A DNA stretch of 64,000 nucleotides. Origin: a virus. Taxonomy: Duplodnaviria > Caudoviricetes. Every line of letters begins with the position of its first letter. The first letter of the stretch is position 1. The translations under genes and the position numbers were made by a program. Positions 33,801 through 60,682 of this stretch are shown here, in pieces. The notes below the pieces were generated by a model. It saw nothing but the letters and a program-made list of their open reading frames with translations, was not told the DNA's origin and did no database searches. Where the stretch lies: positions 201,110 through 265,109 of the IMG/VR virus record IMGVR_UViG_3300043093_000048; one strand, 5' to 3'.

Positions 33801-35387
33801 ATTACCTACAGTAGCATTATCTGTAGAACTTAGTGATAATAATTTATATGGGTTATTATAAAGATTTTCAATTGTTTCAAATGAATAATTTTCACTATAA
33901 TGAAAATCTCTTAAATTAAAATCATTTAATAAGAAATCTCTTAAATTATTATTCCATGAAATTATTGAAGAGGAAATTACTATTTCATTATTTTCATATT
34001 TCTCGGAAATTTCATCAATTATATTAACTATTTTAATAATTTGATCTTTAACTGTTTCATCATTAATATAACTTGAATAACCATAGATATTAATAATTAA
34101 AGGATTATCACTATTATCTTCTGAATAAATATTACGATTATTTTCTGAATCTTCATCATATACAAATCCATCACCATCTTGATCAATTGCATCTGCAGGT
34201 TCTCCATCAAATTGATCATTTTTGATATATGTATAGAATAAAGAATATAAAGCTAACATAGCATCATATAGTTTAATAGTATTTGAACTAATATCAGTAT
34301 TTTTAAATGATAAAGAAGTATTTACTCCATTTTCTCTATCTTGTAACATAGCATCATTTAAAAGATACATAAAATAAGAAAGTGCTTTACCATTTTTAAT
34401 CATATCTACAACATATTCAATAGAAATATACTTAGTATCTAAAGTATTGAAAGACTGATAAAGTACTTCATCTTTACTAGCTCTCCAATATGGATCATCA
34501 CCAGTAATTTCTTCAAAAGTATAAGTTTCATTAGTATCAGTATTTAATTCTTCATCATAAGGTACTTGATAAAAAATTAAATCACCCTTTGGATTTTCTT
34601 TAGTTGGTTGATACTTTGCTAATACATATTTGTAAATATTAAGATTATTTACCATTAAGACTTCTTTAATATATTCAAATGCTGTATCGTCACCTTTATC
34701 TCTTTGTAAATCATTTAATAATTTAATTAATCTTCTCTGATAAGTAATTGGGAGACTATCAAAATAATCAACACCATTTGAAATAAAATAGTTCTTACAC
34801 TGGAATTTATTAAAAGTATCTACATCAAATTGATTTTTCATTCTATAAGTAATATATCTTTGAATTGCCATGAATAAAAGATATACTTCAGAAAATCCTC
34901 TATATAAATCTTCATTCTTAAAAGATTTTGTTCTAGTTACATTATTCCAATAAAATAATGATTCATTATAACATTTTAAGAATAACTGTTCTTGCCATTC
35001 TTCTAATAATACATTACCATCATTATCTGTTGTATTAATACAAGTTAGTATACTATAATCTTCAGCCATTCTTGAATCTAATGGATCAATATTATAATCG
35101 CTTAATAACCAAGCATAGTATTTATTAGTTTCCTCATACATTCCTTTTAATTTTTCTCTTTGAGTTTCAGTATAATCATCTTGCTTGTAACAAGCTTTAA
35201 TATATACATTAGCATTTCTTGCGGAAGTATCAGTTTCATATTTATCTGCCATATCAGAATCTTTAACAACTACACCAGAAGTATAATCAAAAAGATTCTG
35301 GAGTTCATCTATATCCTCTGTATTGACTAAACCATATGAATATTTTTTAAATAATTCTCTACGGCTCAATGTATCCATAAATAACAC
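24879..35387 (-). CDS. giant virion structural protein: baseplate-wedge-like N-terminus, BspA-type LRR region in the C-terminal part
   Basis: N-terminal YEETNKYY..., LQRDKGDDTAFEYIKEV, DDPYW, TKYISIE motifs recalled from phiKZ-like baseplate proteins. IPSTIVYFGEGVF / LPYNLGFIESEAF / IGYSCFSGCSRL repeats at ~27060-28560. Late promoter upstream. Confidence 0.65.
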   Translation of the reverse strand: MLFMDTLSRRELFKKYSYGLVNTEDIDELQNLFDYTSGVVVKDSDMADKYETDTSARNANVYIKACYKQDDYTETQREKLKGMYEETNKYYAWLLSDYNIDPLDSRMAEDYSILTCINTTDNDGNVLLEEWQEQLFLKCYNESLFYWNNVTRTKSFKNEDLYRGFSEVYLLFMAIQRYITYRMKNQFDVDTFNKFQCKNYFISNGVDYFDSLPITYQRRLIKLLNDLQRDKGDDTAFEYIKEVLMVNNLNIYKYVLAKYQPTKENPKGDLIFYQVPYDEELNTDTNETYTFEEITGDDPYWRASKDEVLYQSFNTLDTKYISIEYVVDMIKNGKALSYFMYLLNDAMLQDRENGVNTSLSFKNTDISSNTIKLYDAMLALYSLFYTYIKNDQFDGEPADAIDQDGDGFVYDEDSENNRNIYSEDNSDNPLIINIYGYSSYINDETVKDQIIKIVNIIDEISEKYENNEIVISSSIISWNNNLRDFLLNDFNLRDFHYSENYSFETIENLYNNPYKLLSLSSTDNATVGNMTIKSEFLELANFIKANEIYDTVNYNSYNQSINGYTDLDDVYHKGFNLYTEVKNDNLQEALSYLKTLIFNGDLNVEFLSIHSNFKILFKKYLAYCIINNDIVTSEDLGDEDNFYTYYNPKYDLFYTFMIHNDVIYNELVDYCHEMYGYKVAYFNNFLDNRYNEDGLNYFMKFINLVKNNFFTSDILYKYRNLLTFLEVFSVLSKEINSKNSSSSLEVTGLTNLSSNYSDINISTLMQVLNKNEQIRSELERYITECEEREIYLELKKLLNIKFKSDFNFDIYHEFESFKEYLLNNDEELYNFVTEFGTFNTDNERREEIEERILELSTAIETYIASNGNIVYNSTFNVIFSNMKEFASLLIEVFKAYTLDTLYSNNVLDFDDPVGEQIKIFDEMDDIDFEHFQLDAEPEYLDIQDDIRKDNGDIDSSYNLFIRNLILNTFESDEELSLKDEYLQYIKAYVNIYEGSENLPYAVTNLSPSEFKIKYGDVILSSPLGLSNETYKYNYIEDSYWYLQNSYTGECDINSIKSFNYYDKNQNKTISYNICINKENDLDESNDRDSRGYIVYKNSTYYIYKPSSNNTYKIEEIGENDNIAYISNISNVDISDGNVTRSKYKFTLNIYNHETNKFEPAEKSGFLSVSFFNNNFINYLVEHDMSEGDFNVYYDPYLECGYYSNVYYYNPLTNINSEDNDLMFLSLNTDYYLNNYNDTSRKTDNRRETLFYMRDNRGYNFTETGRIYYNEKIHKEIVTVPDIDYINYLNENDMVNGDYIYKLKDSADYTYYSTTEIDNTNKYKINDNAESLTNIYTTSIKGNEVKSIELELGKKYYLNVHYSYSDLIKMYEDMNYSDIFKEKTIYIKMNGTGVDSFIDKINIDTALKFDFDLISIIDIEDSEKKNIIENIDTTDTEYKTYAVTFKTKKGVKKSMTDLLDENSLSELLNFIDKVGSSRDSDLGYNKDNPFMFSNISNQTEGIKVIYDPLDEMLKYKIYFVVDNSTGSTTIYKYDHECSTTDKLYKIGYGYTLNKSDKFSINILYEALRYYNYEDFHNQIEYTDEIINGKTSVLPLAVSINSGEELLPEPILTEEDGILKVFHTDYTEEQLKKFSIMNDSAFNYYTGNIFDFFYTIKNYSANNYTDNNNKNHYYIDYINSNKSETNFDIIITKDLLTSDLMMNAGTSFNALDDNFKLSIPSTINNNAYLVTLYQNIEKPDTSTNITIEITDTTDSDDESSITQNFAYIAVENKGITDYNTESYTYKTRPLLYEISKFASSLGLKNISTNKKISKSAKDAAAAINEMSKVGRFTVESYLNNISDKNILTLEGQHDESNIVYDENYNYVRLKTFNKFNDYSDFGSDILGGNEKDKEFFYDYDYAKEIGATEKIIDSGICDGPLSNDLVETHIIIKNLDENEIIYDSYSSKDNNCFNESLKLNNDSETIKRNSTYKVYVETLIQNTGANNGNFLFNLDIDDDKTVGCDVSNKKVTYDSDIYGNSIAILNFDFTPTKKECNLKFKMSGIIIFETILDYDFTDENSDTHKLLLISPSKNRNLQSDATKNQKDVHTHCGSIVYYGDGSGLQSMPFTYTTHEFDTSDDDKKQRRVMISTGLPMSAHNNRATNEYSNYNPITNYCFAIDNYWLTTDNYTITMPFLLYKEEIENTTTNKIIIGYDENDNAIYNGDDGKGEDVATFNTKINYDINGTKYWSKTNNNYILKYGNNKLETSYSYLFNDDGIFKDINNRAPSVTVTNTSNKYITNARIPSTIVYFGEGVFKNNKNFDSFTFGPLATYYGESLFENSLLKEVYFLNNALTCSNYRRTIDKKTPPVYSDSSFNINYIPYNSNDNIYGFATFGSKSFKNISTFKDNHFSIKLPYNLGFIESEAFYLSTLNQIIFDNCNYIYTTSINAFSENEYLNRRYIVDFKGNDYRDEDDNLVYEGQAKMDDSKYSYDSEGNFQEYNTTVFDEKLQPTNGYKFSDQLSIKFKHGDNVFINRFHSNVFIDDIYAKTIDTGNAYAIGYSCFSGCSRLMNLLLPEVIYFGNFFVENVQSSMDVDPRVKSFIINYNNKKYLAYYYKDSDIESGYRVNIDGKAYEIMTSCFNGTYIGNHAIYVNCKTGWLYYNHDDKNFHGKMVDIYEENKDEVDGEDYYIDPKYIYYERDGYTDYDEYIDYIESVIEEKPEIYNNGEDSTLLVTKFKDYYLEYVNSGYNAEKVMVTTASNVSKVCENCISLVNVEFGNKLYIISDNNFINCGKLRINNNHLYSIDSDYTEDNIIDLGELIKDDSDFSIEDNNVKYIEKFYDVNKPYVNWNSLIAVEINDIIYNDAFNIIYHGTNDEFKEVRKKINWNARGNKQKYKNISTVSNKRIESPYSKVGDLPYLHEKDDNFTGNNYFTLTMNDSELYFDSLETYKKNDNTYEKDNNYTFTIYSLKDFNPDNNFTYDGDPLNSLYLRAKNTYNNIDSVLATIHENKIAGSTYSDERKRSNEYWYIDPLKVEKYLPSSTENVPKFSTNEYHRTKTESLDAFPDRYYTDDDDIKKEIFKNYIKDLNIIKFNQNKFSDNESEYANKNLYLFKATVKSKMRNINIDNIDYEIPSRNFIDGYQYFNLDFDNDDYTGYYVSNYERSGKKIALFNETIQELISDVVDNSINNPIFKDNISYMYRYGYNGASRILLDTTLEDLANSKYKSNYKNFCHFYEGRKFEKNPDDPDDVCGTLSLNESDFNELVNKDNTSKPLTPSVLNYATSYQLDGFGCIAYGMLGMENPRGRFNAENYNGITLYDISANYPIKDFTDSEDNYLLKDTNTIFLKDCDITNKDSNYYINIRNVYDYNEKYTNTNQFRTIPNATTNIIISKENDDKLKTSSLNRFSFIYRLFGVIYDSTANKIVGYRVNGWMKENEKKGYRSFSDTVTILAEDYYDTLNVEDKEFTFNNTIYNLHDIYNDLLKNTVISNNLVRISFAGGIREIDLSSTTKENISTNIDFIK

Positions 35388-35446: not shown

Positions 35447-35466
35447 AAATATATATTATTTTTGTG
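35447..35466 (+). promoter_or_regulatory. early promoter AAATATATATTAT-N4-GTG
   Basis: Identical to 1214-1233; upstream of 35548. Confidence 0.75.
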
Positions 35467-36325: not shown

Positions 36326-36354
36326 AAAAAAGGATAATATTATCCTTTTTTTTT
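36326..36354 (+). terminator. intrinsic terminator
   Basis: AAAAAAGGATAAT|ATTATCCTTTTTT palindrome plus T tract. Confidence 0.7.
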
Positions 36355-36379: not shown

Positions 36380-36391
36380 AACAATGAATTA
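36380..36391 (+). promoter_or_regulatory. late promoter AACA-N6-TA
   Basis: AACA ATGAAT TA at the head of the 36457-50906 operon. Confidence 0.6.
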
Positions 36392-36456: not shown

Positions 36457-36984
36457 ATGAATTATTATTTATTATTCCCACTTCTATCTCTAAATAATTT
36501 CTTTACAGATGATTTTCTTAGTGCAGATAGAATAACTGCAATACTGGCAGGATTATTATCTGGAGGTTTACTTACATTAATTGGTACTATCCTGACAAAT
36601 CGGAAAGACGATAAGAAAAGTAAAAGAGATAATAGAAGTGATATTGAAAAAACTTATACTGAGAACGCTAAAGAACTAATGGATTCCTATAATGACTTTA
36701 CTAATAAAATTAATGAAAGACTCGCTCATGTTGAAAAACAGCTACAAGAAAAAGACGAAGAAATTGAACAGAAAGATCAGACTATCTCCGATTTAAAAGA
36801 AAAAGTAGTACAATTAACAGCTGAAATAGAAAAACTTATGGAACAAAATAAAATTTTGATAACACAAAATAATAGCTTGAGTGTTAAAAATTCGGAATTA
36901 ATGGAACAAAATAAAAAGTTACTTGGTCATTTAAAAACAGATTTGAATAATGATGATAATGATAATATCGAAAATATGAAATAA
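36457..36984 (+). CDS. membrane-anchored coiled-coil protein (holin-like)
   Basis: TM segment ITAILAGLLSGGLLTLIGTIL followed by a basic stretch and a long heptad coiled coil. Confidence 0.5.
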   Translation: MNYYLLFPLLSLNNFFTDDFLSADRITAILAGLLSGGLLTLIGTILTNRKDDKKSKRDNRSDIEKTYTENAKELMDSYNDFTNKINERLAHVEKQLQEKDEEIEQKDQTISDLKEKVVQLTAEIEKLMEQNKILITQNNSLSVKNSELMEQNKKLLGHLKTDLNNDDNDNIENMK

Positions 36985-36996
36985 AAAATTATTATT

Positions 36997-37026
36997 TTGG
37001 AAAACATTGATATCAATGTTTTCCAA
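36997..37026. other. 30-bp perfect palindrome inside an operon
   Basis: TTGGAAAACATTGAT|ATCAATGTTTTCCAA between co-oriented genes. Confidence 0.8.
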
Positions 37027-37055: not shown

Positions 37056-40000
37056 ATGGCAAATGAAAATTTAACGATTAAAAATTTATCTTCAGCAGTT
37101 ATTAATGGTGATGTAACAAGCTTTAAATCAGTTAATGGCTCAGGTGAAGAAGGTGAAGATTCTGGTTATATTTTAACAAATAGCTTAAAAATAGGATCAA
37201 ATGTAGTTGAATTAAGTTATGATGGTATGACAACTAATACTAAATATTATATATCTCGTAAAACTACAGATGAACTAGATAATAGTCAAAATACTAAATA
37301 TTATTTGTTATTAAATGATAATCTATCAAATTATTTGTATTATATGAATAAAGATATAGAGTCAGTTTATTCGTTTGAAGATACTAATAGTGAAGATAAT
37401 TTATTTATTGTTGATAAGAGTATAATAGAAGATGATGTTAAAGATGATTTTAATGATTATATGATTGATTTTTCAAATAGCTCAATATCAACTTCTGTTG
37501 ATAATATATTTTATAATGGTTCATTATTAGCTGAAATTTTTAGTTCAGATTTAATTTATGGAACAAAATCAAGTGATAATGGTTATATTTATTTATACTT
37601 AAATAAAAATGCAAATCAAGATTTAAAATTTGATATATCTGATTTTATTTTTGAAGTAAGAGTTAATAATATTCCGACAAAATTCTTTGAAGTTAGTGAA
37701 AAGACTTTAGACGTTGGAACGAATTCAATCTATAATGTATTAGTAAAAATAAATGCATCTAAATTTAAGAAAGAAACAGATATGGACGAATTAAATTATT
37801 TCTTAATAGTTGTTAAGAATAAATATACTACTGATACAATGAGTTTTTCATATTCTAAATTTGAAGATTATATGAAACCATTTATTTCTTACGATTCAAT
37901 GCTTCAAACAACTGATGATATTACTATTAACTGTAGATATGATTTATCTATAGCTACTACAAATCAAACAAATAATGTAGTTGTAAATATTAATGATGAT
38001 GACTTATTAGAACTAATTGAAGGAAAGAAACGACCTGTAATAGATGGTTCAATAGTATTTGAAATGACTGATAAAAATATTAATATTAGAGCTTTAACTC
38101 AAACAATTGTTAAAATGTATATTGAAAGTAGTAATAATTATTATTTAATTTCAAGTAATGATATTAATTTTGAAAAGACTAATTATAAATGTTATTCATC
38201 TTCATATAATTATTTTAATGGTACTAAGTCATATATTCTTAATTCAAATAATAGTGAATTGAGTTTTATTGTAGAAAGTACTACAGATATTGATTATAAA
38301 TTTAAAGATACATTTGCTATTAATATAATTAAAATTAAAGATAGTAGTAAAACTAAAGTTGATAATAATGATTCTGATTTAGGAATTAATGATATAGAAT
38401 GCGTTATTACTGTTAATTTTAATGTAAATATTAATCCAGACCCTAAATTTGAATTATCTGAAGATGAAGAGTCTATATTAAAAAATATTATGTCATTCCA
38501 AACTGATACATTAACTGCAGAATTTGGTGGTACATCTTTATTTTCTATAAAAGCTAATAATAATATTGTATTAAATGATTCTGATTTAAATTCTACTGCT
38601 CTTAAAAATTATATAAGCGGTGGTGGTAGAAATCTAACTTATATTGAAGAGAATTTTGATAATTTTGATATTTCTTTTTATGGTATTTATGTAGATTATA
38701 TGGTATTGGATAATAGTGAAATAGGTCAAATATGGTTTAATAAATTTGAAGATGCTGATTTAACTAATGATAACCCTGTAATTACAAAACAAGAATTAGT
38801 TTGTAATGCTAGTTCTTCAGCAGATAATTGTAATGATGGTTTTAATGAAAATGCTTTTTCTGTAACACTTGATGGAGTTACTAAACGTATTTTAATAGTT
38901 CCTGAAGATGTCTTTAAGTTATTTAATTATCTTAATACTTCTGATACTAAGCTTTTTTCTATTGATAATACAACTGAAGATATTTTTTCATTATCTTCTG
39001 ATGAGTTTGTTGAATTAGTTTCAAAAACAAAAAATACTAATAATTTTGCTTTTTATCCTTATGCTGATTTAATATTTTTAGCAAATGAAAATGATGAAGA
39101 TGAATTTGTTAATTCAAATTTATATATAGATTATTATCCTGTAATCCATAGACTTACTAAAAAAACTGATTCAAAAGAAAAAATAGTATGGTCAATTTAT
39201 GATGGTGAAAATGTTACTAATTTGAAACAAGAAAAGATTATTAAATTAGCAGCACAAGAAAAAAATGATAGTGATAGTGATTTATCATCTATTGCAACAG
39301 GTGAATTAGGAACTATAAATGATTCAAATAGTATTATATCATATCCGTCATTTGTTACTTTTAAAGTTTTAATGGAAACAGATAGTGGCGAACCTACTAG
39401 TATAGATTCTGTTACATATACTGGTAAAATAACTAATGGATCAGAATTTCCTGTTTTAATTAAAGATATAAGTTTATCTAATATAGCTGATGATAGTGAT
39501 TTATTTACTTTAAATGAAGATAAAAGCGATATTAGTAGCGATAGCTTTATGGACTATAACCTAGAAATAGGCAATAATTGTATTTCTCTCAGTAAACTTA
39601 ATATAGGTGCTTATAATGATCATAGTGATCTTACAGTTATAACTGCTGAAGATGGCAGTTTATTATATTTATTAAAAGCTGGAGGAACTTTAAACGTAAA
39701 TATTACAAATACTGATGAAGTTAATAATATTCCTGCTGATTTTGGTAAAACTATTAATAATTTAAAGGATTCATTACATTTTGAATTATATTATATTCAA
39801 GAGAATACTGATAGCGATAGTAGTTCATTAAAATATACATTCAGAGAAGATGGTTCTACCGTAGCTACTAATTTTGAAACAGTTATTTCAGTTTATCCTT
39901 TTATTTCTAGTATTAATTTCGATAGTTCTTATTATAGATATGGTGATACTGTTTATAATATAATATCTGACGATATAAAATTAAGATCTGTTGTATTTAG

Positions 40001-43000
40001 AATAGTTAAAGATAGTAATGATACATCAAGATATTCATCTGAAGTAAATTATAAAGATCTTATTGATAATGCTGTAGATAAAGACATAACTGAAAATGAA
40101 AATGATATTTTTTATACTATAAAAGATATTTCAATATTTGATATGCAAGATATTTATTTCTTAGAAAGTGGTAAAGATTTTTCTTATCGTAATATAATTA
40201 ATTTAATTAAATTTAATTATCCTGATAAAACTAGTGTAATAAATAATGCAATAGGTATTCAAGTTATAGCTAGAACTACATATCAAAATAATAATACTGA
40301 ATATGATATGGTTATTATTGATAATTATTTAGATTTATATAGTAATGAAGAAAATTTCTTACCAACTTTAAATAGACTAACTGGTAGTCTATATCATCTT
40401 ATTAAAATTAATAATAAATATGATGATCTTTATGAATATAAAATCATGGTTGATGGTAAAGAATATCATGAAGGAGATATTATATATAATAAATATGCTA
40501 ATGAAATTGCTTTACATAAGTTTAGACTATATTATAAACCTAAATTTACTGTTAATAAAGTTGGTCTAGTTATAGAAGATATAAGTAGTCCTTATAACGG
40601 ATATATTTATGGTGATTTAGATGGTAATGGAATAATTGACTATGTTGAATATAGATTACTTAAAAATTATATAGAAACCCAAGATAGCTCTGGTATTATT
40701 TTAGAATTAGCTGATTTAAATAATGATGGTATTATTGATGTAAATGATTTAAATCTTCTTGAAGAATATTTATCCTCTGTTAATAATATTGGTAAAGCTT
40801 TTACATATACAGACTCAGAAGGTAAAAAAATAACTAGATATGTCGGAAATCTAAATATGTATTTAGAAAATGGCGTAGAAAAATCTTATAATTATACTAG
40901 TGTCGATAAAAGTACTAATAGTGATCATAATATAAATAAAAGAATATATTTAGATTTAAATACACTTCCAGACAGTAGTACAAAAAATGCTGGTTATAGT
41001 GACGTTCAAGCAATTTATGATTATGCAGAGAATATTGGTAATAACACTCCTAGTGATTTAGCTTTACATTTAGCTGATCTTAATAATGATGGAAAAATAA
41101 CAGAAGAAGATGCTAAATTATTAGAAGATACAATTAAAAAATATGGCTATTTAGTTGGTGACATAGACAAAGATGACAATCTTAATATGAATGATGTTAA
41201 TGATATAATACAATTGAATAAAGACAATAAATTAAATAATTTAAGCGATGAAGAAATTAGAATTTATGATGTCAAAAATAGCTATGATCCAAATGGAGAT
41301 CTATTTATTAAAAGTATTAGTGACTTTACTGAAGAAGAATTAAAAGAAATTGATGATCATGATATAATATATAATATAGAAACATTAAAAACGAAATCTA
41401 TTAATTTTAATATAGCATATTATTATGCTAGGGCTGCAGTGGAGCTAAATCCTATTGAATATAAAGATAATTTAATTAGCGATGATAATGAATCTCATGA
41501 AATGTTATTAGGTAAATATTTATTAGAAGTTCCTTTTAATAATGATTCTGATGTAATTACTTCTGAAAATGGATGGTTATTAGCTGATAGTTTTGAAGGT
41601 TGTATAGATGGAACTAAACCAGTAGTTCCTAATTTAACAATTTCAGATTCAGAAATAGATAATGATAATAATTATAAAGAACTTCATAAATATTCTACAT
41701 TAACTAGAGATGAGTTAAAAAATATTATTTATAATCCTAAAGATAATATAATAAGTGAAGTATCATATTACAATAATAATACAAATATTCTTAATGATAT
41801 TTCTTATGATATGAAATACGAAATTCAAGGAACATCTGGTATTTCTATTTTAAAAACACCTAGTGTAGAATTAGATGAAGATGGTAAATATATATATTCT
41901 GTAACTGCTTCAGATATCGTTCAAGGAATGTTTCAAATTGAAAATACTAACGTTGAACCAATCAATGTAGAAATTAACCAAGCAAAAATTAATGATGAAT
42001 CAGGTTATCCATTTAAGATTACTTCAAGTGCTTTATTAAGCCATACTACTTATAATAATGATTATCAACCAATTTATAGAGTAGAACCTAATACTACTTT
42101 AAGTATATTTATAATATTTAACTCTAAATTAGATAACTATTCAACAAATCTTAATATAAGAGTACAAAATAATTATAAGAAAAAATATTCAGATGATAAT
42201 ATAAAATGGGATAGCTATACAATAAGATTAAATTGTGTTCAGAATTATAGTTTTAATAAAGAAATTATTAAACAAATATTACCTTATAAATTCTATGATG
42301 AAAATAATGAAGATACAATAAAAGCTGAATATTATAATATAGTTGATAGCAATGGTAATATAGATTCTGAAAAAATATTTAATATAATTGATGTAAATAA
42401 CTTTAATAAAAACATACTTTATTCAAATTTATTATATTTAGACGATACATTAATTTATGATTCACATAATCCTTCTCCTTTAAAAGATATTAATGATGAG
42501 TCATATCCTTTATTAGTATCTAAAAAAGTTCTTGACAGAAAATTATATATGGGTGATCATACTTTAACACTAATTACTGTAAAGTTTAATGGTTTAATTA
42601 ATTATCATAATTATTATATAACTATAATAGACCAAAATGTATATAACTATAATAACTCTAATAATAGTTTAAATTATTTTAAAGATCAATCAAAATATTA
42701 TAAAAATAATTTAGAAGATAGTTATAGTAGAAATTCTATTATATTAAGACAACCTAAGAATGAAGGTTATGATAAAGAAGACTTTGAAAATGAATTATTC
42801 TTAGATACTAATGGTGATATATCAATGGTAACTAAGGATCTTTCTAAGGGTAAAAAAGATTCTTATTATTTATATAAATTTACTGAAATAATACATCATT
42901 ATATGAATTTCTCTAATTATATTGTAGATAGCGAACAATATTTATTTGAAAAGAATTATCAAGAAATATTAATGTATTATGATGAAATAAAAGAACAATT

Positions 43001-45899
43001 TAATTCTTATACGAATACAATTTATGCTAAATTAAATAAATCTACAGGTGAATTATATACAATCATTAATAGTATTGAATATAGATTTACTACTTATGAT
43101 AGTATATTAGAAGAAATAGAAGCAACTAAAGAAGCTGAAGAGAATAATGTAAGTAGTGAAACAACAACTTCTACTGCAATTAATTATTATAATGATGATG
43201 ACCATTTTATTAGTAGATTATTCTATGAAGATAATATTTTATCAAAATATAAAGAATATAATATTTTATATAGTCCTGACTCTGATTCTAATGATAAAAT
43301 AGAGATTGAAATAAGTAAAGATGATATTGCAACGTTTGAAATTCCTGATGAAGATGTTCTTTATATTAATATTGAAAAAGAAGAAAATATAAAAATAAAT
43401 AGCGTTAAAATCATTTCTGCTACACCAACTGTTGGAAGCACGCCAGTTACTTGTACTGATAATTCAATAAGCAGTAATTCTACTATTGTTTCTATTGAAA
43501 ATGGTAAAATTGTTTTTAGTGTTAATAATGCTATAACACAAATTAAAAGTAGTGTTGAATTAAATGAAAATGATAATCATAAAGTATATGTAGAACTAAG
43601 TAATACTAATGCTGGAACTACTTATCTTTATATCTTTAATTTATTAAATGCTTATAGCAGCTTAAAAATAAGTGATTCTAATGATATTAAATTTTCTGCT
43701 TTACAACAACCTAGTAGAACTTTAACTAATACAACTAAATATCCAATAACATTTGCAATATATTATAAAAATACAAGATTAAAATCAAATAAATTTTATT
43801 CTTTTGATTCAACTATGAATATTATTGATGCTGCTAATGATAAATGTAGTTTTAAAATAAATTATCAAAATAATGGAAAAATAGAAGATAACGATGATGG
43901 TACTATTATTACATTATCTCCATTTGCTTCTTGTAATATTACATTTACTGGTAGCTGTAGTGATAGCTCTAGTATTTCTCTTAAGGATAGCTTAATTCCT
44001 TTATTAGATGTACCAAGTGCTACAACATCATCTAATACTAGTATAAGTAAATTATTAGAAACATTAAACAAAAAATCAATGATTAATCATAGTATTTCTA
44101 TTAAAATAGAATCTATTGGAGATAAAGATGATATAACTATGGGATATTATAGTTATTTAGCCACTAATACATCAAGTTATGATTTAACTGTTAAATATAT
44201 GGAATTTAATGCAATTTATTTAAGTGATTTTTATTATTCGAAAGACGGTTCTATTTTTAATAAAACTCATTCAAAGACTTATGATATTTATAAAGATAAA
44301 AGTAATAATGCTTTAGTGTTACTTATAAATGACTCAAACGAAATAAATAAAAATGCTTTTGGCAATTTTATAGTAAATGGTTTTAATGATGTTATTAAAA
44401 CAGATAGTAATAAATTTAAAACTTATTATCCATTTAGACGCAATGCAATTAATTGTAATGTATCGTCTGATAATATAAATTCAGAAATAGCATTAAATTT
44501 ACAATATAATAATTCATTTAATATATCAAATATGACTAGTGTAATAAATAGTGTTACTTCATTTACTACAACTAATATATTTCCTATGATACTTGTAAAG
44601 AGTGACACTGACAATGATACTAACCCTAATATTTCATTCGCTGTTAATTTTGGTACTTTTAAAAATAAAACTTTTAGTAGTATGAATAATTTTAATTATA
44701 GCACAATTACTACAACACCTGAGAATAGAAATAATCTTGAATATAAGAAGATAAGTGAATTAGTTACTAGTAAAAATTCTACTTATAGTATTTACGATGG
44801 TAAACCAAATAATGGTGAAGATACTTCTTATAAATATGGAAAAATAATAGATAATAATATTGAATATTTTATAGCAAATCTTAACGATATTCAAATTGAT
44901 GAAAATAATACAAATCCTATTTATTTATATTTCAATTTTATAGAAGATGGTAAAAAAGAAGATATTTCGGATCAATCTGGAATAGTTTATCATATTGATG
45001 ATGACCCTAATATGAGTGAAGGATTAAGAAATTTATTTACTTATGGTTCAAAACAACAAACATTAAAATGGATTTATAATGCATTAATTGGTTCAGATAA
45101 TGATATTGATGGTACATTAGGACAATTTTATGATGATAGTCTTTTAAATATTGTAAATTGGGTTAAAGATTCTTATAATAATTTAAGTAAAAAAGAAGAA
45201 AAGTTTAAAGATATTATAGATGAAATATATGATACTAAATCTACTATAGCAGTTTTATTACAAAATATATCAAATCAATTTAATCAATTAAATGATAAAG
45301 CTGATGTTAAAGAATTTAAAGAATGGATAAATGAAAATGTATATAATTTAGCAGATTTTGAATATTCTATATCTGAAATTTTTGCAGATATTTATTATTT
45401 ATCAGATAAAGGTGTATCATTATCTGTAAAAATAACTGATAGTGAAAATAATGAAACTACTAAAGATTTTAGTTTTAAAAATTCTTTACCATTAGTTAAT
45501 AAATATAAATATTGGGAGAAAGATTCTACCAATAATATCATAGAAGATACTAAAACTTTTGTAAAAAATATTAAAACTACTGATAATAGTGAAGATGATA
45601 CTAGTAGTAATACAGCTAGCAATACTAGTACAGATTCTACAGATGACTCAAATTCTGCTACTGAAGTTACTGATTCAGTTGATGTTTCTTTACATCCAGA
45701 TATTTGGAATAGTTCATTAATAACATCTAACTTTGAAGATGATAATTATTTTATAGAAAAAATTTGGATTAATCCAACTAATACAGATATAGATCCTATT
45801 TTTTATAAAAAGAATTTTATTGAGACATCAACTTTACTCAAAAATTCTAATTGTTATACAAATATTAGTAGTTCAATAAAATATAATTTTAGCAATTAA
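37056..45899 (+). CDS. giant putative virion protein with tandem dockerin-like modules
   Basis: 2947 aa, N/D/S-rich, beta-strand-rich. YGDLDGNGIIDYVEYRLLKNYI...ADLNNDGIIDVNDLNLLEEYL at 40608-40772, plus further repeats to ~41300. Confidence 0.75.
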   Translation: MANENLTIKNLSSAVINGDVTSFKSVNGSGEEGEDSGYILTNSLKIGSNVVELSYDGMTTNTKYYISRKTTDELDNSQNTKYYLLLNDNLSNYLYYMNKDIESVYSFEDTNSEDNLFIVDKSIIEDDVKDDFNDYMIDFSNSSISTSVDNIFYNGSLLAEIFSSDLIYGTKSSDNGYIYLYLNKNANQDLKFDISDFIFEVRVNNIPTKFFEVSEKTLDVGTNSIYNVLVKINASKFKKETDMDELNYFLIVVKNKYTTDTMSFSYSKFEDYMKPFISYDSMLQTTDDITINCRYDLSIATTNQTNNVVVNINDDDLLELIEGKKRPVIDGSIVFEMTDKNINIRALTQTIVKMYIESSNNYYLISSNDINFEKTNYKCYSSSYNYFNGTKSYILNSNNSELSFIVESTTDIDYKFKDTFAINIIKIKDSSKTKVDNNDSDLGINDIECVITVNFNVNINPDPKFELSEDEESILKNIMSFQTDTLTAEFGGTSLFSIKANNNIVLNDSDLNSTALKNYISGGGRNLTYIEENFDNFDISFYGIYVDYMVLDNSEIGQIWFNKFEDADLTNDNPVITKQELVCNASSSADNCNDGFNENAFSVTLDGVTKRILIVPEDVFKLFNYLNTSDTKLFSIDNTTEDIFSLSSDEFVELVSKTKNTNNFAFYPYADLIFLANENDEDEFVNSNLYIDYYPVIHRLTKKTDSKEKIVWSIYDGENVTNLKQEKIIKLAAQEKNDSDSDLSSIATGELGTINDSNSIISYPSFVTFKVLMETDSGEPTSIDSVTYTGKITNGSEFPVLIKDISLSNIADDSDLFTLNEDKSDISSDSFMDYNLEIGNNCISLSKLNIGAYNDHSDLTVITAEDGSLLYLLKAGGTLNVNITNTDEVNNIPADFGKTINNLKDSLHFELYYIQENTDSDSSSLKYTFREDGSTVATNFETVISVYPFISSINFDSSYYRYGDTVYNIISDDIKLRSVVFRIVKDSNDTSRYSSEVNYKDLIDNAVDKDITENENDIFYTIKDISIFDMQDIYFLESGKDFSYRNIINLIKFNYPDKTSVINNAIGIQVIARTTYQNNNTEYDMVIIDNYLDLYSNEENFLPTLNRLTGSLYHLIKINNKYDDLYEYKIMVDGKEYHEGDIIYNKYANEIALHKFRLYYKPKFTVNKVGLVIEDISSPYNGYIYGDLDGNGIIDYVEYRLLKNYIETQDSSGIILELADLNNDGIIDVNDLNLLEEYLSSVNNIGKAFTYTDSEGKKITRYVGNLNMYLENGVEKSYNYTSVDKSTNSDHNINKRIYLDLNTLPDSSTKNAGYSDVQAIYDYAENIGNNTPSDLALHLADLNNDGKITEEDAKLLEDTIKKYGYLVGDIDKDDNLNMNDVNDIIQLNKDNKLNNLSDEEIRIYDVKNSYDPNGDLFIKSISDFTEEELKEIDDHDIIYNIETLKTKSINFNIAYYYARAAVELNPIEYKDNLISDDNESHEMLLGKYLLEVPFNNDSDVITSENGWLLADSFEGCIDGTKPVVPNLTISDSEIDNDNNYKELHKYSTLTRDELKNIIYNPKDNIISEVSYYNNNTNILNDISYDMKYEIQGTSGISILKTPSVELDEDGKYIYSVTASDIVQGMFQIENTNVEPINVEINQAKINDESGYPFKITSSALLSHTTYNNDYQPIYRVEPNTTLSIFIIFNSKLDNYSTNLNIRVQNNYKKKYSDDNIKWDSYTIRLNCVQNYSFNKEIIKQILPYKFYDENNEDTIKAEYYNIVDSNGNIDSEKIFNIIDVNNFNKNILYSNLLYLDDTLIYDSHNPSPLKDINDESYPLLVSKKVLDRKLYMGDHTLTLITVKFNGLINYHNYYITIIDQNVYNYNNSNNSLNYFKDQSKYYKNNLEDSYSRNSIILRQPKNEGYDKEDFENELFLDTNGDISMVTKDLSKGKKDSYYLYKFTEIIHHYMNFSNYIVDSEQYLFEKNYQEILMYYDEIKEQFNSYTNTIYAKLNKSTGELYTIINSIEYRFTTYDSILEEIEATKEAEENNVSSETTTSTAINYYNDDDHFISRLFYEDNILSKYKEYNILYSPDSDSNDKIEIEISKDDIATFEIPDEDVLYINIEKEENIKINSVKIISATPTVGSTPVTCTDNSISSNSTIVSIENGKIVFSVNNAITQIKSSVELNENDNHKVYVELSNTNAGTTYLYIFNLLNAYSSLKISDSNDIKFSALQQPSRTLTNTTKYPITFAIYYKNTRLKSNKFYSFDSTMNIIDAANDKCSFKINYQNNGKIEDNDDGTIITLSPFASCNITFTGSCSDSSSISLKDSLIPLLDVPSATTSSNTSISKLLETLNKKSMINHSISIKIESIGDKDDITMGYYSYLATNTSSYDLTVKYMEFNAIYLSDFYYSKDGSIFNKTHSKTYDIYKDKSNNALVLLINDSNEINKNAFGNFIVNGFNDVIKTDSNKFKTYYPFRRNAINCNVSSDNINSEIALNLQYNNSFNISNMTSVINSVTSFTTTNIFPMILVKSDTDNDTNPNISFAVNFGTFKNKTFSSMNNFNYSTITTTPENRNNLEYKKISELVTSKNSTYSIYDGKPNNGEDTSYKYGKIIDNNIEYFIANLNDIQIDENNTNPIYLYFNFIEDGKKEDISDQSGIVYHIDDDPNMSEGLRNLFTYGSKQQTLKWIYNALIGSDNDIDGTLGQFYDDSLLNIVNWVKDSYNNLSKKEEKFKDIIDEIYDTKSTIAVLLQNISNQFNQLNDKADVKEFKEWINENVYNLADFEYSISEIFADIYYLSDKGVSLSVKITDSENNETTKDFSFKNSLPLVNKYKYWEKDSTNNIIEDTKTFVKNIKTTDNSEDDTSSNTASNTSTDSTDDSNSATEVTDSVDVSLHPDIWNSSLITSNFEDDNYFIEKIWINPTNTDIDPIFYKKNFIETSTLLKNSNCYTNISSSIKYNFSN

Positions 45900-45906
45900 A
45901 AAATTA

Positions 45907-45938
45907 ATATGGATTCTATGATTACATAGAATCCATAT
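45907..45938. other. intergenic 14-bp-stem hairpin
   Basis: ATATGGATTCTATG-ATTA-CATAGAATCCATAT. Confidence 0.7.
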
Positions 45939-49169: not shown

Positions 49170-50906
49170 ATGTCTTCTTATAAACAAATTTTAAGTAATT
49201 CTAAAAGAAATATAATAGATCAACCTAATATAATAAAGAGTAAAATTAATTATAATTATGAGAAATATTATAATACTCCTAAAATGATTTTAGTTATTGA
49301 AAATAAACAAATTTCTAAAGAAGTTTTAAATACTTTAGCACTTAATGATGATAATATTTCATTTAATATAGATTATGATGAACTAAATCCTGCTGTTTCT
49401 ACTAATATTTTTAATTTCTTTAACCAATGGCATAGTAATTTAATAACCTCTATTGATGAAGAAACTGGTAGTAAATATGATAATGCTTTTTATACTAATA
49501 ACTATAATTTTGCTTATCATTATTTTATAGATAAAAAAGGTAATATATATGAAGGAAGACCGCATAATATAAGAGCCTTTAATTTAGATATCTATAAATA
49601 TGATAGAGAAATAGAAAGTGTTGAATCAAATAGAATATATGATGATAGTGGTAAAAGATTTCTTCCATTACTCAATCAAGGAAATCTTTTATTTAATGAT
49701 TGCTTAGTTATTTTAACTGAAGAACAAACAGATAGTATTGATACTACTAATGCTACATATACAGCTTTAAAAACATTATTAGTTTATTTAAGACAAAATT
49801 ATGGATATGATAAATTCTTTGGATATAGTGAATTAAAAGGTGTTCCTTTTTCACAAGAAGATTATGAAAATAAAGATATATATAAATATAATAATCCAGG
49901 AGTATTTTTTAAAATTAATGAATTACATTCAGCAGTTGAAAATACACAATTAGTTTCTTATAATAAAGTTAATGGCTCTACTATTACAACTTATACATAT
50001 GGTAAAAGATCTCTTAAATATAATAAACCAAAACAAATGGAAGGTAATGACGTAATAATGTGTCAAAAAATGTTATATAAATTAGGACTATTGCCTAAAT
50101 ATAAAAGCATCACTGGATCATACAATTTAGAAACTAAAAATGCTATTAAAGAATTTCAGCAAAAATATTATATAACACCAGAAAATGATTATGGTATGGC
50201 AGATGTTAATACACTTAATATTCTAAGAAGTAAAATATATGATAAAAAAATGGAGAATATTAAATTAATTGATGATAATTATTCTCCATTTAGAGTATTA
50301 GAATATATTGAAGATAATAATATGACTGGTTATGATGTATTAATATTGCAAACTAAACTTAAGAAAATAATTTATCCAATTCTAGAAGTTAATGGTATTT
50401 TTGATGAATATACTAGAGATGCTGTATTACTCTTTCAAGCAAAATACTCAACATATGTAGATGGTGAAATGATTGATGGAAAAGTTGGTCCTGCTACTTG
50501 GAAATTAATAATTGAAAATACAGATACTATTTTTGTTAGCAATAGTGATAGCTATATTGAAGGAGCTATTACACCTACTAAATGTACAGTTAGTAAAGCT
50601 AATATTACTTATCTACAACAGGCTCTTAATAAAATGCTTAAAACATATGGGGTTGAAATTCCAGTAACTGGTGGTTATGATGAATTAACTCAAAAATATA
50701 TTAAGATGATTAATGAAAATGAATCTAATAGAAAAATTATTGGTTTAGATAAATATACTTATATAGATGAAAATGGAGAAACACAGTATTTAGATTGGAC
50801 AAATGATGCTGTTCTTAAAACTTGTTATCCTGCTGAATTTATTTGGTTAATAAAGCATTATTTATTAAATGAAGATATAGATTTAGATTTAGTTCGTGAA
50901 AATTAA
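49170..50906 (+). CDS. Amidase_2/PGRP-fold protein with three peptidoglycan-binding domains; Zn ligands appear substituted
   Basis: AYHYFIDKKGNIYEGRP amidase motif; GNDVIMCQKMLYKLG...AIKEFQ, GYDVLILQTKL...DGKVGPATW and YLQQALN..G..TGGYD PG_binding_1-type repeats. Confidence 0.8.
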   Translation: MSSYKQILSNSKRNIIDQPNIIKSKINYNYEKYYNTPKMILVIENKQISKEVLNTLALNDDNISFNIDYDELNPAVSTNIFNFFNQWHSNLITSIDEETGSKYDNAFYTNNYNFAYHYFIDKKGNIYEGRPHNIRAFNLDIYKYDREIESVESNRIYDDSGKRFLPLLNQGNLLFNDCLVILTEEQTDSIDTTNATYTALKTLLVYLRQNYGYDKFFGYSELKGVPFSQEDYENKDIYKYNNPGVFFKINELHSAVENTQLVSYNKVNGSTITTYTYGKRSLKYNKPKQMEGNDVIMCQKMLYKLGLLPKYKSITGSYNLETKNAIKEFQQKYYITPENDYGMADVNTLNILRSKIYDKKMENIKLIDDNYSPFRVLEYIEDNNMTGYDVLILQTKLKKIIYPILEVNGIFDEYTRDAVLLFQAKYSTYVDGEMIDGKVGPATWKLIIENTDTIFVSNSDSYIEGAITPTKCTVSKANITYLQQALNKMLKTYGVEIPVTGGYDELTQKYIKMINENESNRKIIGLDKYTYIDENGETQYLDWTNDAVLKTCYPAEFIWLIKHYLLNEDIDLDLVREN

Positions 50907-50942: not shown

Positions 50943-50962
50943 AAATATATATTATTTTTATG
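50943..50962 (+). promoter_or_regulatory. early promoter AAATATATATTAT-N4-ATG
   Basis: Matches the early consensus; upstream of the RNAP gene at 51003. Confidence 0.75.
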
Positions 50963-51002: not shown

Positions 51003-52346
51003 ATGCATTTTAAAGTTATTAATTTTGACGACATTTACAAACCTGAAAACGTTATTACTTCTACTGATTATATCAGTAGTGGTAAAAAGGAGAAGTTCAA
51101 TGATGATGGTCTTTTCTCTGAAAGGATTTTTGGAGAAAATGCCGATGATACTTCAATTGACACAATTGGATGGATTTTATTTAAAGGGTTTAAGGTAATT
51201 TCACCTCTACATTTTGAAAGACTTAAAAAAGTCTTCAAGAATAAACCTTTGAATAAGATGTTGTCATATGAAACAAAGACTAATGAAACAGGTGAATTAC
51301 TTCCAGTAGAAAACCTTGCTAATGATTGGTATAATATTGGAATTATTGGTTTCATTAACAACTTTGAACAAATATTAGAAGAATTAGGCAATAAAGAAGT
51401 TCCTGAATATAAAACTATTAAGAAAGTTTATGATGATGGATTACTCTTTATTGATAAGTTTCCTGTAATATCTTCTAAGCTAAGACCTGGTATGATTATT
51501 AAAGGTAGTAAAAATAAAAATAAAAATAAGAAGATTACTAAAACTACTGTTAAATATGATGATATTAATGGTCTTTATAATTTTATCTTAAAGTATTCTT
51601 TAGATATCCAAAAAAATCTTGAAACTATTGGTGGCATTGATCATATTGAAGATGAATGTAATGCAGATATTAAAGCAGGAATTTATCCTATGCTTTATAA
51701 TCTTCAGGATTATTGTAATCAAGTAATTATTTATATTATTAATAACTTCCTTAAAGAAAAGAAAGGAACATTAAGAAAACATATCGCTTCTTCTAGAGTT
51801 AATTATTCTGCAAGAAATGTATTGACTCCAAGACTTAAAGGAAATATTAATGATGTAGAATTACCTTATTTAACATTCCTTGAGCTATTTAGATTTCCAT
51901 TAACTAATATGATAGTAAAAGGCGAAGGAATCACTTATAATGAAGCCGATGAATATATTCAGAATAGTAAAAGATATTTTAATAAAAAGCTTTATAATTA
52001 TATGAATGAATATATTAAGAATAGTAAGGAAGGTGTTTCAATACTTCTTAATAGAAATCCATCTATTGCTATTGGTTCTATATTACAACTTAATGTAGCT
52101 GGAGTTAAAAGTGATTTTAGTGATTTAACTATTTCTGTAAGTAATAACATTCTATCTAATCTCAACGCTGATTATGATGGTGATGTTTTAAATATTTTTG
52201 CTTTGTTAACTCAGGAGCAAAAACATTATTTTGATACACTAAAACCAACTAATTTAATCATCGATAAAAACAACGGAAAATTCGACAGAGGATTTTCTTT
52301 GTCTAAGGATGCTAGATATGGATTAGAAATCCTTACAAAGATTTAA
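51003..52346 (+). CDS. phage multisubunit RNA polymerase beta'-like catalytic subunit (probably non-virion RNAP)
   Basis: GLFSERIFG, LRP, RVNYSARNV, LLNRNPSI and catalytic NADYDGD; the early promoter implies nvRNAP. Confidence 0.92.
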   Translation: MHFKVINFDDIYKPENVITSTDYISSGKKEKFNDDGLFSERIFGENADDTSIDTIGWILFKGFKVISPLHFERLKKVFKNKPLNKMLSYETKTNETGELLPVENLANDWYNIGIIGFINNFEQILEELGNKEVPEYKTIKKVYDDGLLFIDKFPVISSKLRPGMIIKGSKNKNKNKKITKTTVKYDDINGLYNFILKYSLDIQKNLETIGGIDHIEDECNADIKAGIYPMLYNLQDYCNQVIIYIINNFLKEKKGTLRKHIASSRVNYSARNVLTPRLKGNINDVELPYLTFLELFRFPLTNMIVKGEGITYNEADEYIQNSKRYFNKKLYNYMNEYIKNSKEGVSILLNRNPSIAIGSILQLNVAGVKSDFSDLTISVSNNILSNLNADYDGDVLNIFALLTQEQKHYFDTLKPTNLIIDKNNGKFDRGFSLSKDARYGLEILTKI

Positions 52347-60605: not shown

Positions 60606-60682
60606 GGAGGTGTAGCTCAGTCGGTTAGAGCAGAGTCCTTATAAGGCTTGTGTCGTTGGTTCAAGTCCAACCATCTCTACCA
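60606..60682 (+). tRNA. tRNA-Ile (anticodon UAU) with encoded CCA
   Basis: Acceptor GGAGGTG/CATCTCT, D arm GCTC/GAGC, anticodon arm GAGTC-CT TAT AA-GGCTT, T arm GTTGG-TTCAAGT-CCAAC, discriminator A, CCA. Confidence 0.92.

What the first reader, a model, noticed from the sequence alone, without database searches (positions are those of the whole stretch)
40608..41300. Tandem cellulosomal dockerin-like modules in a giant phage structural protein
Seen: a canonical duplicated Ca-binding loop-helix, YGDLDGNGIIDYVEYRLLKNYI-x10-LADLNNDGIIDVNDLNLLEEYL (40608-40772). A second unit ends LADLNNDGKITEEDAKLLEDTI, and a third degenerate one reads LVGDIDKDDNLNMNDVNDIIQL...LSDEEIRIYDV. Known: this is the type I dockerin signature that binds cohesins of cellulosome scaffoldins in Ruminococcus/Clostridium. 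Inference: the gene is in a late structural operon, so the virion may dock onto host cell-surface cohesins/cellulosomes as a receptor or tether. That would be hijacking of the cohesin-dockerin system by a phage.
Basis: partly seen in the sequence, partly recalled or inferred. Interest (0 to 1): 0.85.

Follow-up and report, generated by a model that had tools for sequence, protein, structure and literature searches.

The report
Dockerin cassette in jumbo-phage giant protein
A 265-kb phage related to Bacillus phage AR9 carries two genuine "dockerin" plugs (the calcium-dependent modules that fibre-degrading bacteria use to clip proteins onto surface sockets) in an optional insert of a 2,947-residue late protein. 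The phage may therefore tether itself to its host's sockets, but no socket, host or binding has been shown.

Summary
Window 37056-45899 (+) encodes a 2,947-aa protein. Residues 1185-1239 pass Pfam Dockerin_1 (30.8 bits against a cut-off of 22.9; EF-hand models fail). They fold at pLDDT 96-98 onto solved cohesin-bound dockerins (rmsd 1.1-1.9 Å). Residues ~1337-1387 form a second, short-linker dockerin that scores just under the cut-off.

Both modules lie in a ~340-aa cassette (aa 1168-1506) inserted where three syntenic orthologues have only a ~10-residue linker. A fourth orthologue has a homologous cassette without module 1. The cassette is therefore an old, dispensable accessory.

The phage is an AR9/PBS1-like jumbo phage (24.8% GC, split RNA polymerases, AR9 early-promoter consensus 37 times). 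The gene has no early promoter and lies in the same non-early block as the endolysin gene, among virion-protein genes. Virion location is inferred, not shown.

No cohesin is encoded by the phage, and the host is unknown. The only host clue is a related phage contig that encodes a secreted protein with a Ruminococcus flavefaciens group-2-type dockerin.

Cohesin-mediated tethering is the best reading (~0.4) but is untested. The scan has noted phage dockerins on other DNA before. I found no paper describing one in a virion protein.

The parts
37056..45899 (+). Giant gene (2,947 aa, P0002). It is an orphan family found only in a small clade of AR9-like jumbo phages. It has no signal peptide and no PHROG hit; Dockerin_1 is its only Pfam family above cut-off.
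40557..41573 (+). Accessory cassette, aa 1168-1506. It replaces a ~10-residue linker between two strongly conserved body segments (…HKFRLYYKPK | W-x-LADSFEGC…). It is absent in orthologues P0003/4/5 and present in a diverged form in P0174.
40608..40772 (+). Dockerin module 1 (aa 1185-1239). It is a canonical duplicated loop-helix, with loops DLDGNGIIDYVE (40614-40649) and DLNNDGIIDVND (40713-40748).
   Evidence: Pfam 30.8/39.1 bits; PDB phmmer 1.3e-9 to 8x39 and 3.8e-8 to 5lxv_B; AF2 pLDDT 96-98; Foldseek TM 0.78-0.91 to solved dockerins
40773..41063 (+). Inter-dockerin spacer (~97 aa), predicted as a beta-hairpin-rich stretch with low confidence. It has no relatives apart from weak similarity to the segment that follows the dockerin in a dockerin-LRR_5 (BspA-type) bacterial protein.
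41064..41216 (+). Dockerin module 2 (aa ~1337-1387), a short-linker type. Its loops are DLNNDGKITEED and DIDKDDNLNMND (Asp instead of Gly at loop position 6). Pfam reads a shifted register, aa 1316-1358.
   Evidence: 21.9 bits, just under the cut-off; independent hits to natural short-linker dockerins up to 28.3 bits; AF2 pLDDT 72-77 for the first half only
41217..41573 (+). C-terminal part of the cassette (~119 aa), predicted helical at low confidence. It is homologous only to the same part of the P0174 cassette.
35447..35466 (+). Exact AR9-type early promoter (AAATATATATTAT-N6-G) driving the upstream 257-aa gene. This gene is therefore not part of the late block.
   Evidence: consensus from PMC5312081
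36326..36353 (+). Intrinsic-terminator-like hairpin plus T-run that ends the early 257-aa gene.
   Evidence: read directly
36380..36391 (+). Match to the AR9 late-promoter consensus AACA-N6-TA, upstream of the 175-aa gene and the giant gene. The motif is short (about 0.6 per kb per strand by chance).
45907..45938 (+). 14-bp-stem terminator-like hairpin directly after the giant gene's stop codon.
49170..50906 (+). Endolysin (Amidase_2 plus 2x PG_binding_1) in the same non-early block. It is syntenic with AR9 g272 ahead of the RNA polymerase beta' gene.

Best explanation
What it is (shown): a giant late protein of an AR9/PBS1-like jumbo phage carries an optional ~340-aa cassette, spliced into a linker between two conserved body domains. 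The cassette holds one canonical type-I dockerin and one short-linker dockerin.

How it most likely works (inferred): the protein is part of the particle surface. It has no signal peptide, so a dockerin in it can meet an extracellular partner only on a virion or after lysis. Its calcium-loaded dockerins bind cohesin modules displayed on the envelope or cellulosome-like complexes of a fibre-degrading Ruminococcus-type host. Two modules would add avidity.

This would give reversible first-contact tethering that raises the chance of productive adsorption. It is an accessory adhesin, not the essential receptor step, because sister phages do without it.
For: - Dockerin identity: Pfam above cut-off with EF-hand models below; best PDB sequence hits are cohesin-binding dockerins; module 1 folds at pLDDT 96-98; the top 29 Foldseek hits are all dockerins, nearly all chains from cohesin complexes, at rmsd 1.1-1.9 Å.
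- Module 2 aligns with natural short-linker dockerins, with both acidic loops intact.
- Clean domain insertion into a linker flanked by invariant segments. Gain and loss across five orthologues is the pattern expected of accessory host-interaction modules.
- Timing and context: no early promoter, one late-consensus motif, in the same non-early block as the endolysin gene. Neighbours include virion-protein homologues (phrog_20751 / AR9 g260, phrog_20401) and giant peptidoglycan-hydrolase proteins. In AR9 the equivalent position holds Ig-like and PKD-repeat proteins among proteins annotated as virion proteins.
- Host clue: a syntenic relative (contig of P0004) encodes a signal-peptide protein whose dockerin matches the R. 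flavefaciens FD-1 group-2 dockerin (9gvb_B, 9e-10) and the ScaH dockerin. Another relative has a further partial dockerin hit. The clade therefore deals repeatedly in dockerins.
- No signal peptide at the N-terminus.
Against: - No cohesin, host or binding is shown.
- Virion location rests on context only. The protein has no PHROG, PDB or AR9 homologue.
- Equally similar dockerins occur in non-cellulosomal phyla, and non-cellulosomal dockerins of unknown function are widespread (Peer et al. 2009, cited in PMC2930009).
- This phage itself has no Ruminococcus-type dockerin motif, so the host clue is indirect.
- Position 12 of loop 1 is Glu, and loop position 6 of the last repeat is Asp rather than Gly.
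- The second half of module 2 folds with low confidence.
- A spacer search of 20 kb against 401 genomes of one cohesin-bearing family gave only chance matches.
Confidence: 0.4

Rival explanations
1. Cohesin-independent dockerin. The modules are calcium-binding structural or adhesive units that stabilise or stiffen the giant protein, or bind some other ligand, as proposed for the many non-cellulosomal dockerin-like modules. No cohesin is involved.
For: Dockerin_1 relatives at 34-43% identity lie in Planctomycetota, Omnitrophota, Verrucomicrobiota, Prevotellaceae and Bacilli. The top exhaustive hits are proteins with 5-9 tandem dockerins and no cellulase context. No cohesin is present in this phage or in two relatives. 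The rest of the cassette is an orphan.
Against: Module 1 is closest in sequence and fold to dockerins solved in complex with cohesins. The body works without the cassette in three lineages, so it is not needed for structural stability. A relative encodes an R. flavefaciens-type secreted dockerin.
Confidence: 0.3
2. Post-lysis or non-virion role. The giant protein is not a particle component but is released at lysis. It then docks onto cellulosomes or scaffoldins of neighbouring cells or fibre-bound complexes, for example to mark, block or remodel them. Alternatively, virions only hitch-hike on fibre-bound cellulosomes rather than on the cell.
For: There is no direct evidence of virion location. 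Relatives encode secreted small dockerin proteins, which points to cellulosome manipulation during infection. AR9 g275, at the equivalent position, is not annotated as a virion protein.
Against: A 2,947-aa protein conserved in synteny among virion-protein and lysin genes, and apparently late, is more typical of a structural component. It lacks a signal peptide.
Confidence: 0.15
3. Phage-internal plug and socket. The dockerins bind a divergent cohesin-like domain of another phage protein and serve particle assembly or decoration.
For: Earlier notes of this scan describe one soil phage with both modules (e1-3295112, unchecked). Many ORFs of this phage are of unknown fold.
Against: There is no PF00963 match even at E<=10 in this phage, or at E<=1 in two relatives. 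Neighbouring genes are conserved in relatives that lack the cassette, so none is a cassette-specific partner.
Confidence: 0.08

Closest known systems
Type I dockerins of cellulosomal proteins (Pfam PF00404), e.g. the R. flavefaciens dockerin bound to the ScaC cohesin (PDB 5LXV chain B), C. thermocellum Doc918 (3UL4) and C. acetobutylicum CaDoc0917 (6KGE)
   Same: Module 1 has the full duplicated loop-helix and both 12-residue acidic loops. It is 43% identical to 5lxv_B and superposes at rmsd 1.1-1.9 Å with TM 0.78-0.91.
   Different: It is embedded in the middle of a 2,947-aa phage protein without a signal peptide, not at the end of a secreted enzyme. No cognate cohesin is known. The putative recognition positions 10/11 differ between the two repeats (Y-V against V-N), which suggests a single rather than dual binding mode; this is inference only.
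Cellulosomal double-dockerin of C. thermocellum Clo1313_0689 (PDB 8X39/8X3A)
   Same: It is the best PDB sequence hit (1.3e-9) and has two dockerins in one polypeptide.
   Different: There the two dockerins are contiguous. Here they are ~97 residues apart and of different subtypes.
Ig-like, PKD and carbohydrate-binding decoration domains on phage particles (e.g. the AR9 g275/g276 region)
   Same: These are accessory, swappable adhesion modules in large late proteins. AR9 has Ig-like and PKD-repeat proteins at the syntenic position.
   Different: A different fold with a different expected ligand (a protein socket rather than glycan). There is no sequence homology.
Secreted dockerin proteins of related jumbo phages
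   Same: Same phage clade and same module family, pointing to use of a host cohesin system.
   Different: Those are small, signal-peptide-bearing and of the R. flavefaciens group-2/ScaH type. Here the dockerins are of the classical type and sit inside a giant protein without an export signal. This phage has no homologue of the small proteins.

Membership tests
Dockerin type I (Pfam PF00404) | Profile score above the curated gathering cut-off (22.9 bits) - module 1 | tested here: met
   30.8 bits on the protein and 39.1 bits in six-frame search, profile 1-56 of 57
Dockerin type I (Pfam PF00404) | Profile score above the cut-off - module 2 | tested here: inconclusive
   21.9 bits, just below the cut-off, but phmmer hits up to 28.3 bits to natural short-linker dockerins
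Dockerin type I (Pfam PF00404) | Two ~22-residue repeats, each a 12-residue Ca-binding loop (Asp/Asn at positions 1, 3, 5; acidic at 12) followed by a helix | tested here: met
   Loops at aa 1187, 1220, 1341 and 1369; helices after each loop in the model. Deviations: Glu at position 12 of loop 1; Asp instead of Gly at position 6 of loop 4.
Dockerin type I (Pfam PF00404) | Dockerin fold | tested here: met
   Module 1 has pLDDT 96-98, and the top 29 Foldseek PDB hits are all dockerins. Module 2 is only partly confident (72-77, then below 60).
Dockerin type I (Pfam PF00404) | Ca2+-dependent binding to a cohesin | not testable with these tools
   No host and therefore no cognate cohesin is identified. 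The complex-prediction job was not spent on a stand-in.
Cohesin-dockerin system (complete pair) | A cohesin (PF00963) encoded by the same genome | tested here: not met
   No match at E<=10 in the 265-kb phage and none at E<=1 in two relatives. A host-encoded partner remains possible.
Cellulosomal component (secreted dockerin-bearing protein) | N-terminal signal peptide for export | tested here: not met
   The N-terminus MANENLTIKNLSS… has no hydrophobic leader. By contrast the relative's 255-aa dockerin protein starts MKNKIFISIIMSLFIVLTMV….
Generic EF-hand (PF00036, PF13202, PF13405) | Score above the family cut-off | tested here: not met
   20.3, 13.5 and 11.6 bits against cut-offs of about 25
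AR9/PBS1-like jumbo phages (Takahashivirus-like) | Split multisubunit RNA polymerase genes, AR9-type early promoter consensus and syntenic amidase-beta' arrangement | tested here: met
   beta' N-terminal part is 40% identical to Bacillus phages Goe21 and AR9. Further RNAP fragments are seen. AAATATATATTAT-N6-G occurs 37 times in the genome. Synteny is shown.
Virion structural protein | Homology to a protein detected in particles, or direct detection | tested here: not met
   No PHROG, GenBank-phage, AR9 g275 or PDB homology. Only context supports it.

The most novel reading that the evidence does not exclude
Virus particles adsorb through the host's own cohesin-dockerin assembly code. A clade of herbivore-gut jumbo phages has repeatedly captured dockerins, here inside a giant particle protein and in relatives as secreted proteins. 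The dockerins plug into anchored scaffoldin cohesins of Ruminococcus-type bacteria. This would make the cellulosome a phage receptor and make dockerin specificity a determinant of host range.
Probability: 0.3. Interest if true: 0.8.

Novelty: new variant of a known kind. Interest (0 to 1): 0.6.

Why it matters
Cohesin-dockerin pairs are among the tightest and most specific protein-protein interactions known, and they organise fibre digestion in the rumen and gut. If phages display dockerins to latch onto those sockets, the cellulosome would be a phage receptor. Phage pressure could then help explain the strong diversification of dockerin and cohesin groups in Ruminococcus. Phage dockerins would also be a natural source of new orthogonal binding pairs.

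The full-text searches made here found no paper describing a dockerin in a phage particle protein. UniProt holds a few uncharacterised viral 'Dockerin type 1' entries, so the module's presence in phages is not itself new. What is new is the architecture, the gain-and-loss history and the proposed use.

Tried and rejected
- Single-sequence AF2 of the cassette gave a useless model (pLDDT 33.7). It was replaced by a 92-row alignment.
- GenBank phages: no DNA or protein match to the giant gene, the cassette or the 760-aa neighbour.
- hhalign of the orthologue profile against AR9 g275 gave no homology. ESM Atlas features gave nothing above noise. The profile against PDB sequences gave nothing.
- Donor or host from dockerin similarity: the first genome scan found nothing and two alignments were too diverse to use. 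The third gave 16 hits scattered over many phyla at 34-43% identity, so there is no host signal.
- CRISPR attempt: 20 kb of the window against 401 genomes of the family of a cohesin-rich Oscillospiraceae MAG gave only short AT-rich matches. The five best are not in repeat arrays. Only one 20-kb piece and one family were sampled.
- Sample identifiers (SRR11794470/76, JGI 3300043094, 3300043019, 3300028591, ERZ28564867) occur in no searchable paper. The environment is therefore not established by a tool. My recollection that 3300028591 is a rumen sample is unverified.
- The spacer after module 1 resembles the start of a BspA-type LRR region in a dockerin-LRR_5 protein (P0109/P0164), but only at 13.6 bits. 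I kept this as a weak lead, not a claim.
- Flanking direct repeats as a sign of a mobile insertion: none convincing. Cassette GC and GC3 equal the rest of the gene, so there is no sign of recent import.
- I first read the cassette as a single gain in this lineage. I rejected that after finding P0174 and building the tree.
- Complex prediction was not run, because without a host cohesin a stand-in pair would pass or fail uninformatively.

Full report
**Observation**

Frame 1 of window 40608-41300 gives exactly the peptides quoted. They lie in one ORF, 37056-45899 (+), 2,947 aa, here P0002.

Four 12-residue acidic loops, each followed by an amphipathic helix, start at aa 1187, 1220, 1341 and 1369. 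The strict loop pattern occurs four times in the six-frame translation of the whole genome, and three of those are here. Shuffles of this Asn/Asp/Ile-rich protein give 0.01 per shuffle.

Pfam Dockerin_1 covers aa 1185-1239 end to end at 30.8 bits, against a cut-off of 22.9. All EF-hand models stay below their cut-offs. A six-frame search gives 39.1 bits, plus a second hit of 21.9 bits at aa ~1316-1358.

The identical protein is encoded on seven contigs; the four listed come from four different samples, so this is not an assembly artefact.

**What the modules are**

*Module 1.* Its best PDB sequence hits are:
- the C. thermocellum double-dockerin of Clo1313_0689 (8x39, 1.3e-9);
- an R. flavefaciens dockerin solved on the ScaC cohesin (5lxv_B, 3.8e-8, 43% identity);
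- C. thermocellum, P. cellulosolvens and A. cellulolyticus dockerins.

Without an alignment AF2 failed. With 92 rows, module 1 is predicted at pLDDT 96-98. The first 29 Foldseek PDB hits are all dockerins, nearly all chains from cohesin complexes (TM to target 0.78-0.91, rmsd 1.1-1.9 Å).

*Module 2.* I read it as LADLNNDGKITEED-helix, a 7-residue linker, then GDIDKDDNLNMND-helix. It aligns with natural short-linker dockerins that also lack Gly at loop position 6. Only its first half is moderately confident in the model. Pfam prefers a register shifted by one repeat, so the stretch aa 1316-1390 can also be described as three consecutive repeats, the first degenerate.

*Rest of the cassette.* An exhaustive HMMER search of 1.84 billion representatives found 202 proteins at E<=1e-3, matching essentially only the two dockerin segments. 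The remainder has no relatives outside this phage clade.

**Where they sit**

Three orthologues (P0003, P0004, P0005; 2,533-2,634 aa; 44-47% identity; same gene neighbourhood) align on both sides of aa 1168-1506. At that point they have only about ten residues, between the invariant segments …ALHKFRLYYKPK and W-x-LADSFEGC-x-DGTKP.

A fourth orthologue, P0174 (2,840 aa), lies on a 305,865-bp IMG/VR record. It has a 305-aa cassette at the same point. That cassette is homologous to ours at 36% identity through the spacer, module 2 and the tail, but it has nothing in place of module 1. Its module 2 is more degenerate, at 18.6-22.4 bits.

A maximum-likelihood tree of the bodies with the cassettes removed groups P0002 with cassette-less P0003 (100/100). 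P0174 falls on the other side with P0004/P0005. At least two events are therefore needed. The similar divergence of cassette and body favours an old cassette lost twice, although recombination cannot be excluded.

Either way the cassette is dispensable for the protein's core role, and the canonical module 1 is seen only in this phage. Cassette GC (24.4%) and GC3 (9%) equal the gene's, and there are no flanking repeats.

**The phage and the gene's setting**

The window is the last 64 kb of a 265,109-bp virus record rated complete, with 24.8% GC.

- It has split multisubunit RNA-polymerase genes. The beta' N-terminal part is 40% identical to that of Bacillus phages Goe21 and AR9, followed by Listeria and Staphylococcus jumbo phages.
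- The AR9 early-promoter consensus AAATATATATTAT-N6-G (PMC5312081) occurs 37 times in the genome. One copy is at 35447, ahead of the 257-aa gene, which ends at a terminator (36326-36353). Another is at 50943, ahead of the beta' gene.
- Between those points lie five co-oriented genes: 175 aa, the giant, 760 aa, 301 aa and the endolysin. This block has no early promoter. It has one match to the AR9 late consensus AACA-N6-TA at 36380, which is weak because the motif is short. A strong hairpin follows the giant gene at 45907-45938.
- Nearby are a 3,502-aa protein whose N-terminus matches AR9 virion protein g260, a phrog_20401 virion protein, and two >2,200-aa proteins with glucosaminidase, M23 and tail-lysozyme domains.
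- In AR9 the position ahead of the amidase and beta' genes holds virion proteins, an Ig-like protein and a PKD-repeat protein.

The giant protein itself has no PHROG, GenBank-phage, AR9 or PDB relative. 'Late' is reasonably supported. 'Structural' is inferred from context.

**Partner and host**

No cohesin profile match exists in this phage even at E<=10, nor in two relatives.

The closest dockerins in 185,579 species genomes are 34-43% identical and are scattered over Omnitrophota, Planctomycetota, Prevotellaceae, Bacilli and Clostridia. The dockerin therefore identifies neither a donor nor a host, and by itself it does not imply a cellulosome.

There is one indirect clue. The 41-kb contig that carries orthologue P0004 also encodes a 255-aa protein with a signal peptide. 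Its C-terminal dockerin matches the R. flavefaciens FD-1 group-2 dockerin (9gvb_B, 9e-10) and the ScaH dockerin. In FD-1, group-2 dockerins were reported to resemble no dockerin outside that organism (PMC2930009). The 306-kb relative has a further half-dockerin in a 258-aa membrane or secreted protein. Our phage has no homologue of these small proteins.

By analogy with AR9, whose GC content I recall to be roughly 15 points below that of B. subtilis (from memory, not tested here), the 24.8% GC of this phage does not exclude a ~40% GC Ruminococcus host. A limited CRISPR search found nothing. The sample identifiers appear in no searchable paper.

**Mechanism**

Shown: genuine dockerin modules in an accessory cassette of a giant, apparently late phage protein that has no export signal.

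Inferred: the protein is on the particle. The Ca2+-loaded dockerins bind host-surface cohesins, with two modules adding avidity. The effect is reversible tethering that precedes the essential receptor step. I put this at about 0.4.

Rivals:
- a cohesin-independent calcium or adhesion role (0.3);
- a non-virion or post-lysis role on cellulosomes (0.15);
- a phage-internal partner (0.08).

**Comparison and novelty**

By sequence and fold, module 1 is a member of the type-I dockerin family. Functional membership, meaning cohesin binding, is untested, and a complete pair is not present in the phage.

BFVD holds a few uncharacterised viral proteins with this fold, one of them named 'Dockerin type 1'. 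The full-text searches found no study of a dockerin in a phage particle protein. The nearest is a note on dockerin genes on a putative ANME virus contig (PMC13452462).

Earlier notes of this scan report dockerins in other jumbo phages on other DNA. These notes are unchecked and are not used as evidence here.

I class the finding as a new variant of a known kind, with interest 0.6.

Noticed in passing
L030:1414-2181 (-), on IMGVR_UViG_3300028591_000390, the contig of orthologue P0004: A 255-aa protein with a clear signal peptide and a C-terminal dockerin nearly identical in motif to the R. flavefaciens FD-1 group-2 dockerin (PDB 9gvb_B, E 9e-10). It is the best host clue for this phage clade.
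   Followed up: partly
L031:844-1620 (+), on IMGVR_UViG_3300032030_000005: A 258-aa protein with an N-terminal membrane or signal segment and a single dockerin-like loop-helix at its C-terminus (Dockerin_1 20.3 bits, profile 2-31).
   Followed up: no
window 1214, 35447, 50943, 52445, 59110, 60791 (+): The AR9 early-promoter consensus AAATATATATTAT-N6-G is conserved in this distant relative. There are 37 copies in the genome at up to one mismatch, 32 of them on the + strand. This allows early and non-early genes to be told apart by sequence.
   Followed up: partly
window 36996-37021: A perfect 26-nt palindrome (GGAAAACATTGATATCAATGTTTTCC) lies between the 175-aa gene and the giant gene, without a T-run. 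It could be an attenuator, a processing site or a protein-binding site.
   Followed up: no
window 36457-36984 (+): A 175-aa protein with an N-terminal membrane segment and a long coiled coil (weak PHROG 'hol-like chemotaxis' hits), conserved directly upstream of the giant gene in all relatives.
   Followed up: no
window 24879-35387 (-): A 3,502-aa protein. Only about the first 920 residues match AR9 virion protein g260 (738 aa); the remaining ~2,600 residues are unexplained.
   Followed up: no
window 3774-10379 and 10404-17399 (+): Two adjacent giant proteins (2,201 and 2,331 aa) carrying a GH73-type glucosaminidase and M23 peptidase plus tail lysozyme respectively. They are probably particle-borne cell-wall hydrolases, suggesting a thick-walled host.
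   Followed up: no
window 60606-60682 (+): tRNA-Ile with anticodon TAT, fitting the extreme AT bias (24.8% GC; GC3 of the giant gene 7.7%).
   Followed up: no
protein P0016 (899 aa, metagenomic, 9 contigs): Among the dockerin hits is a protein with ricin-type lectin repeats, three dockerins and an M23 peptidase. It may be a cohesin-targeted cell-wall hydrolase of unknown origin.
   Followed up: no
L003 and L010 compared with the window: In relatives the RNA polymerase beta' gene is followed or interrupted by an HNH/NUMOD4 homing-endonuclease gene, as in AR9 g271. In the window the beta' ORF (51003-52346) is uninterrupted at that point.
   Followed up: no
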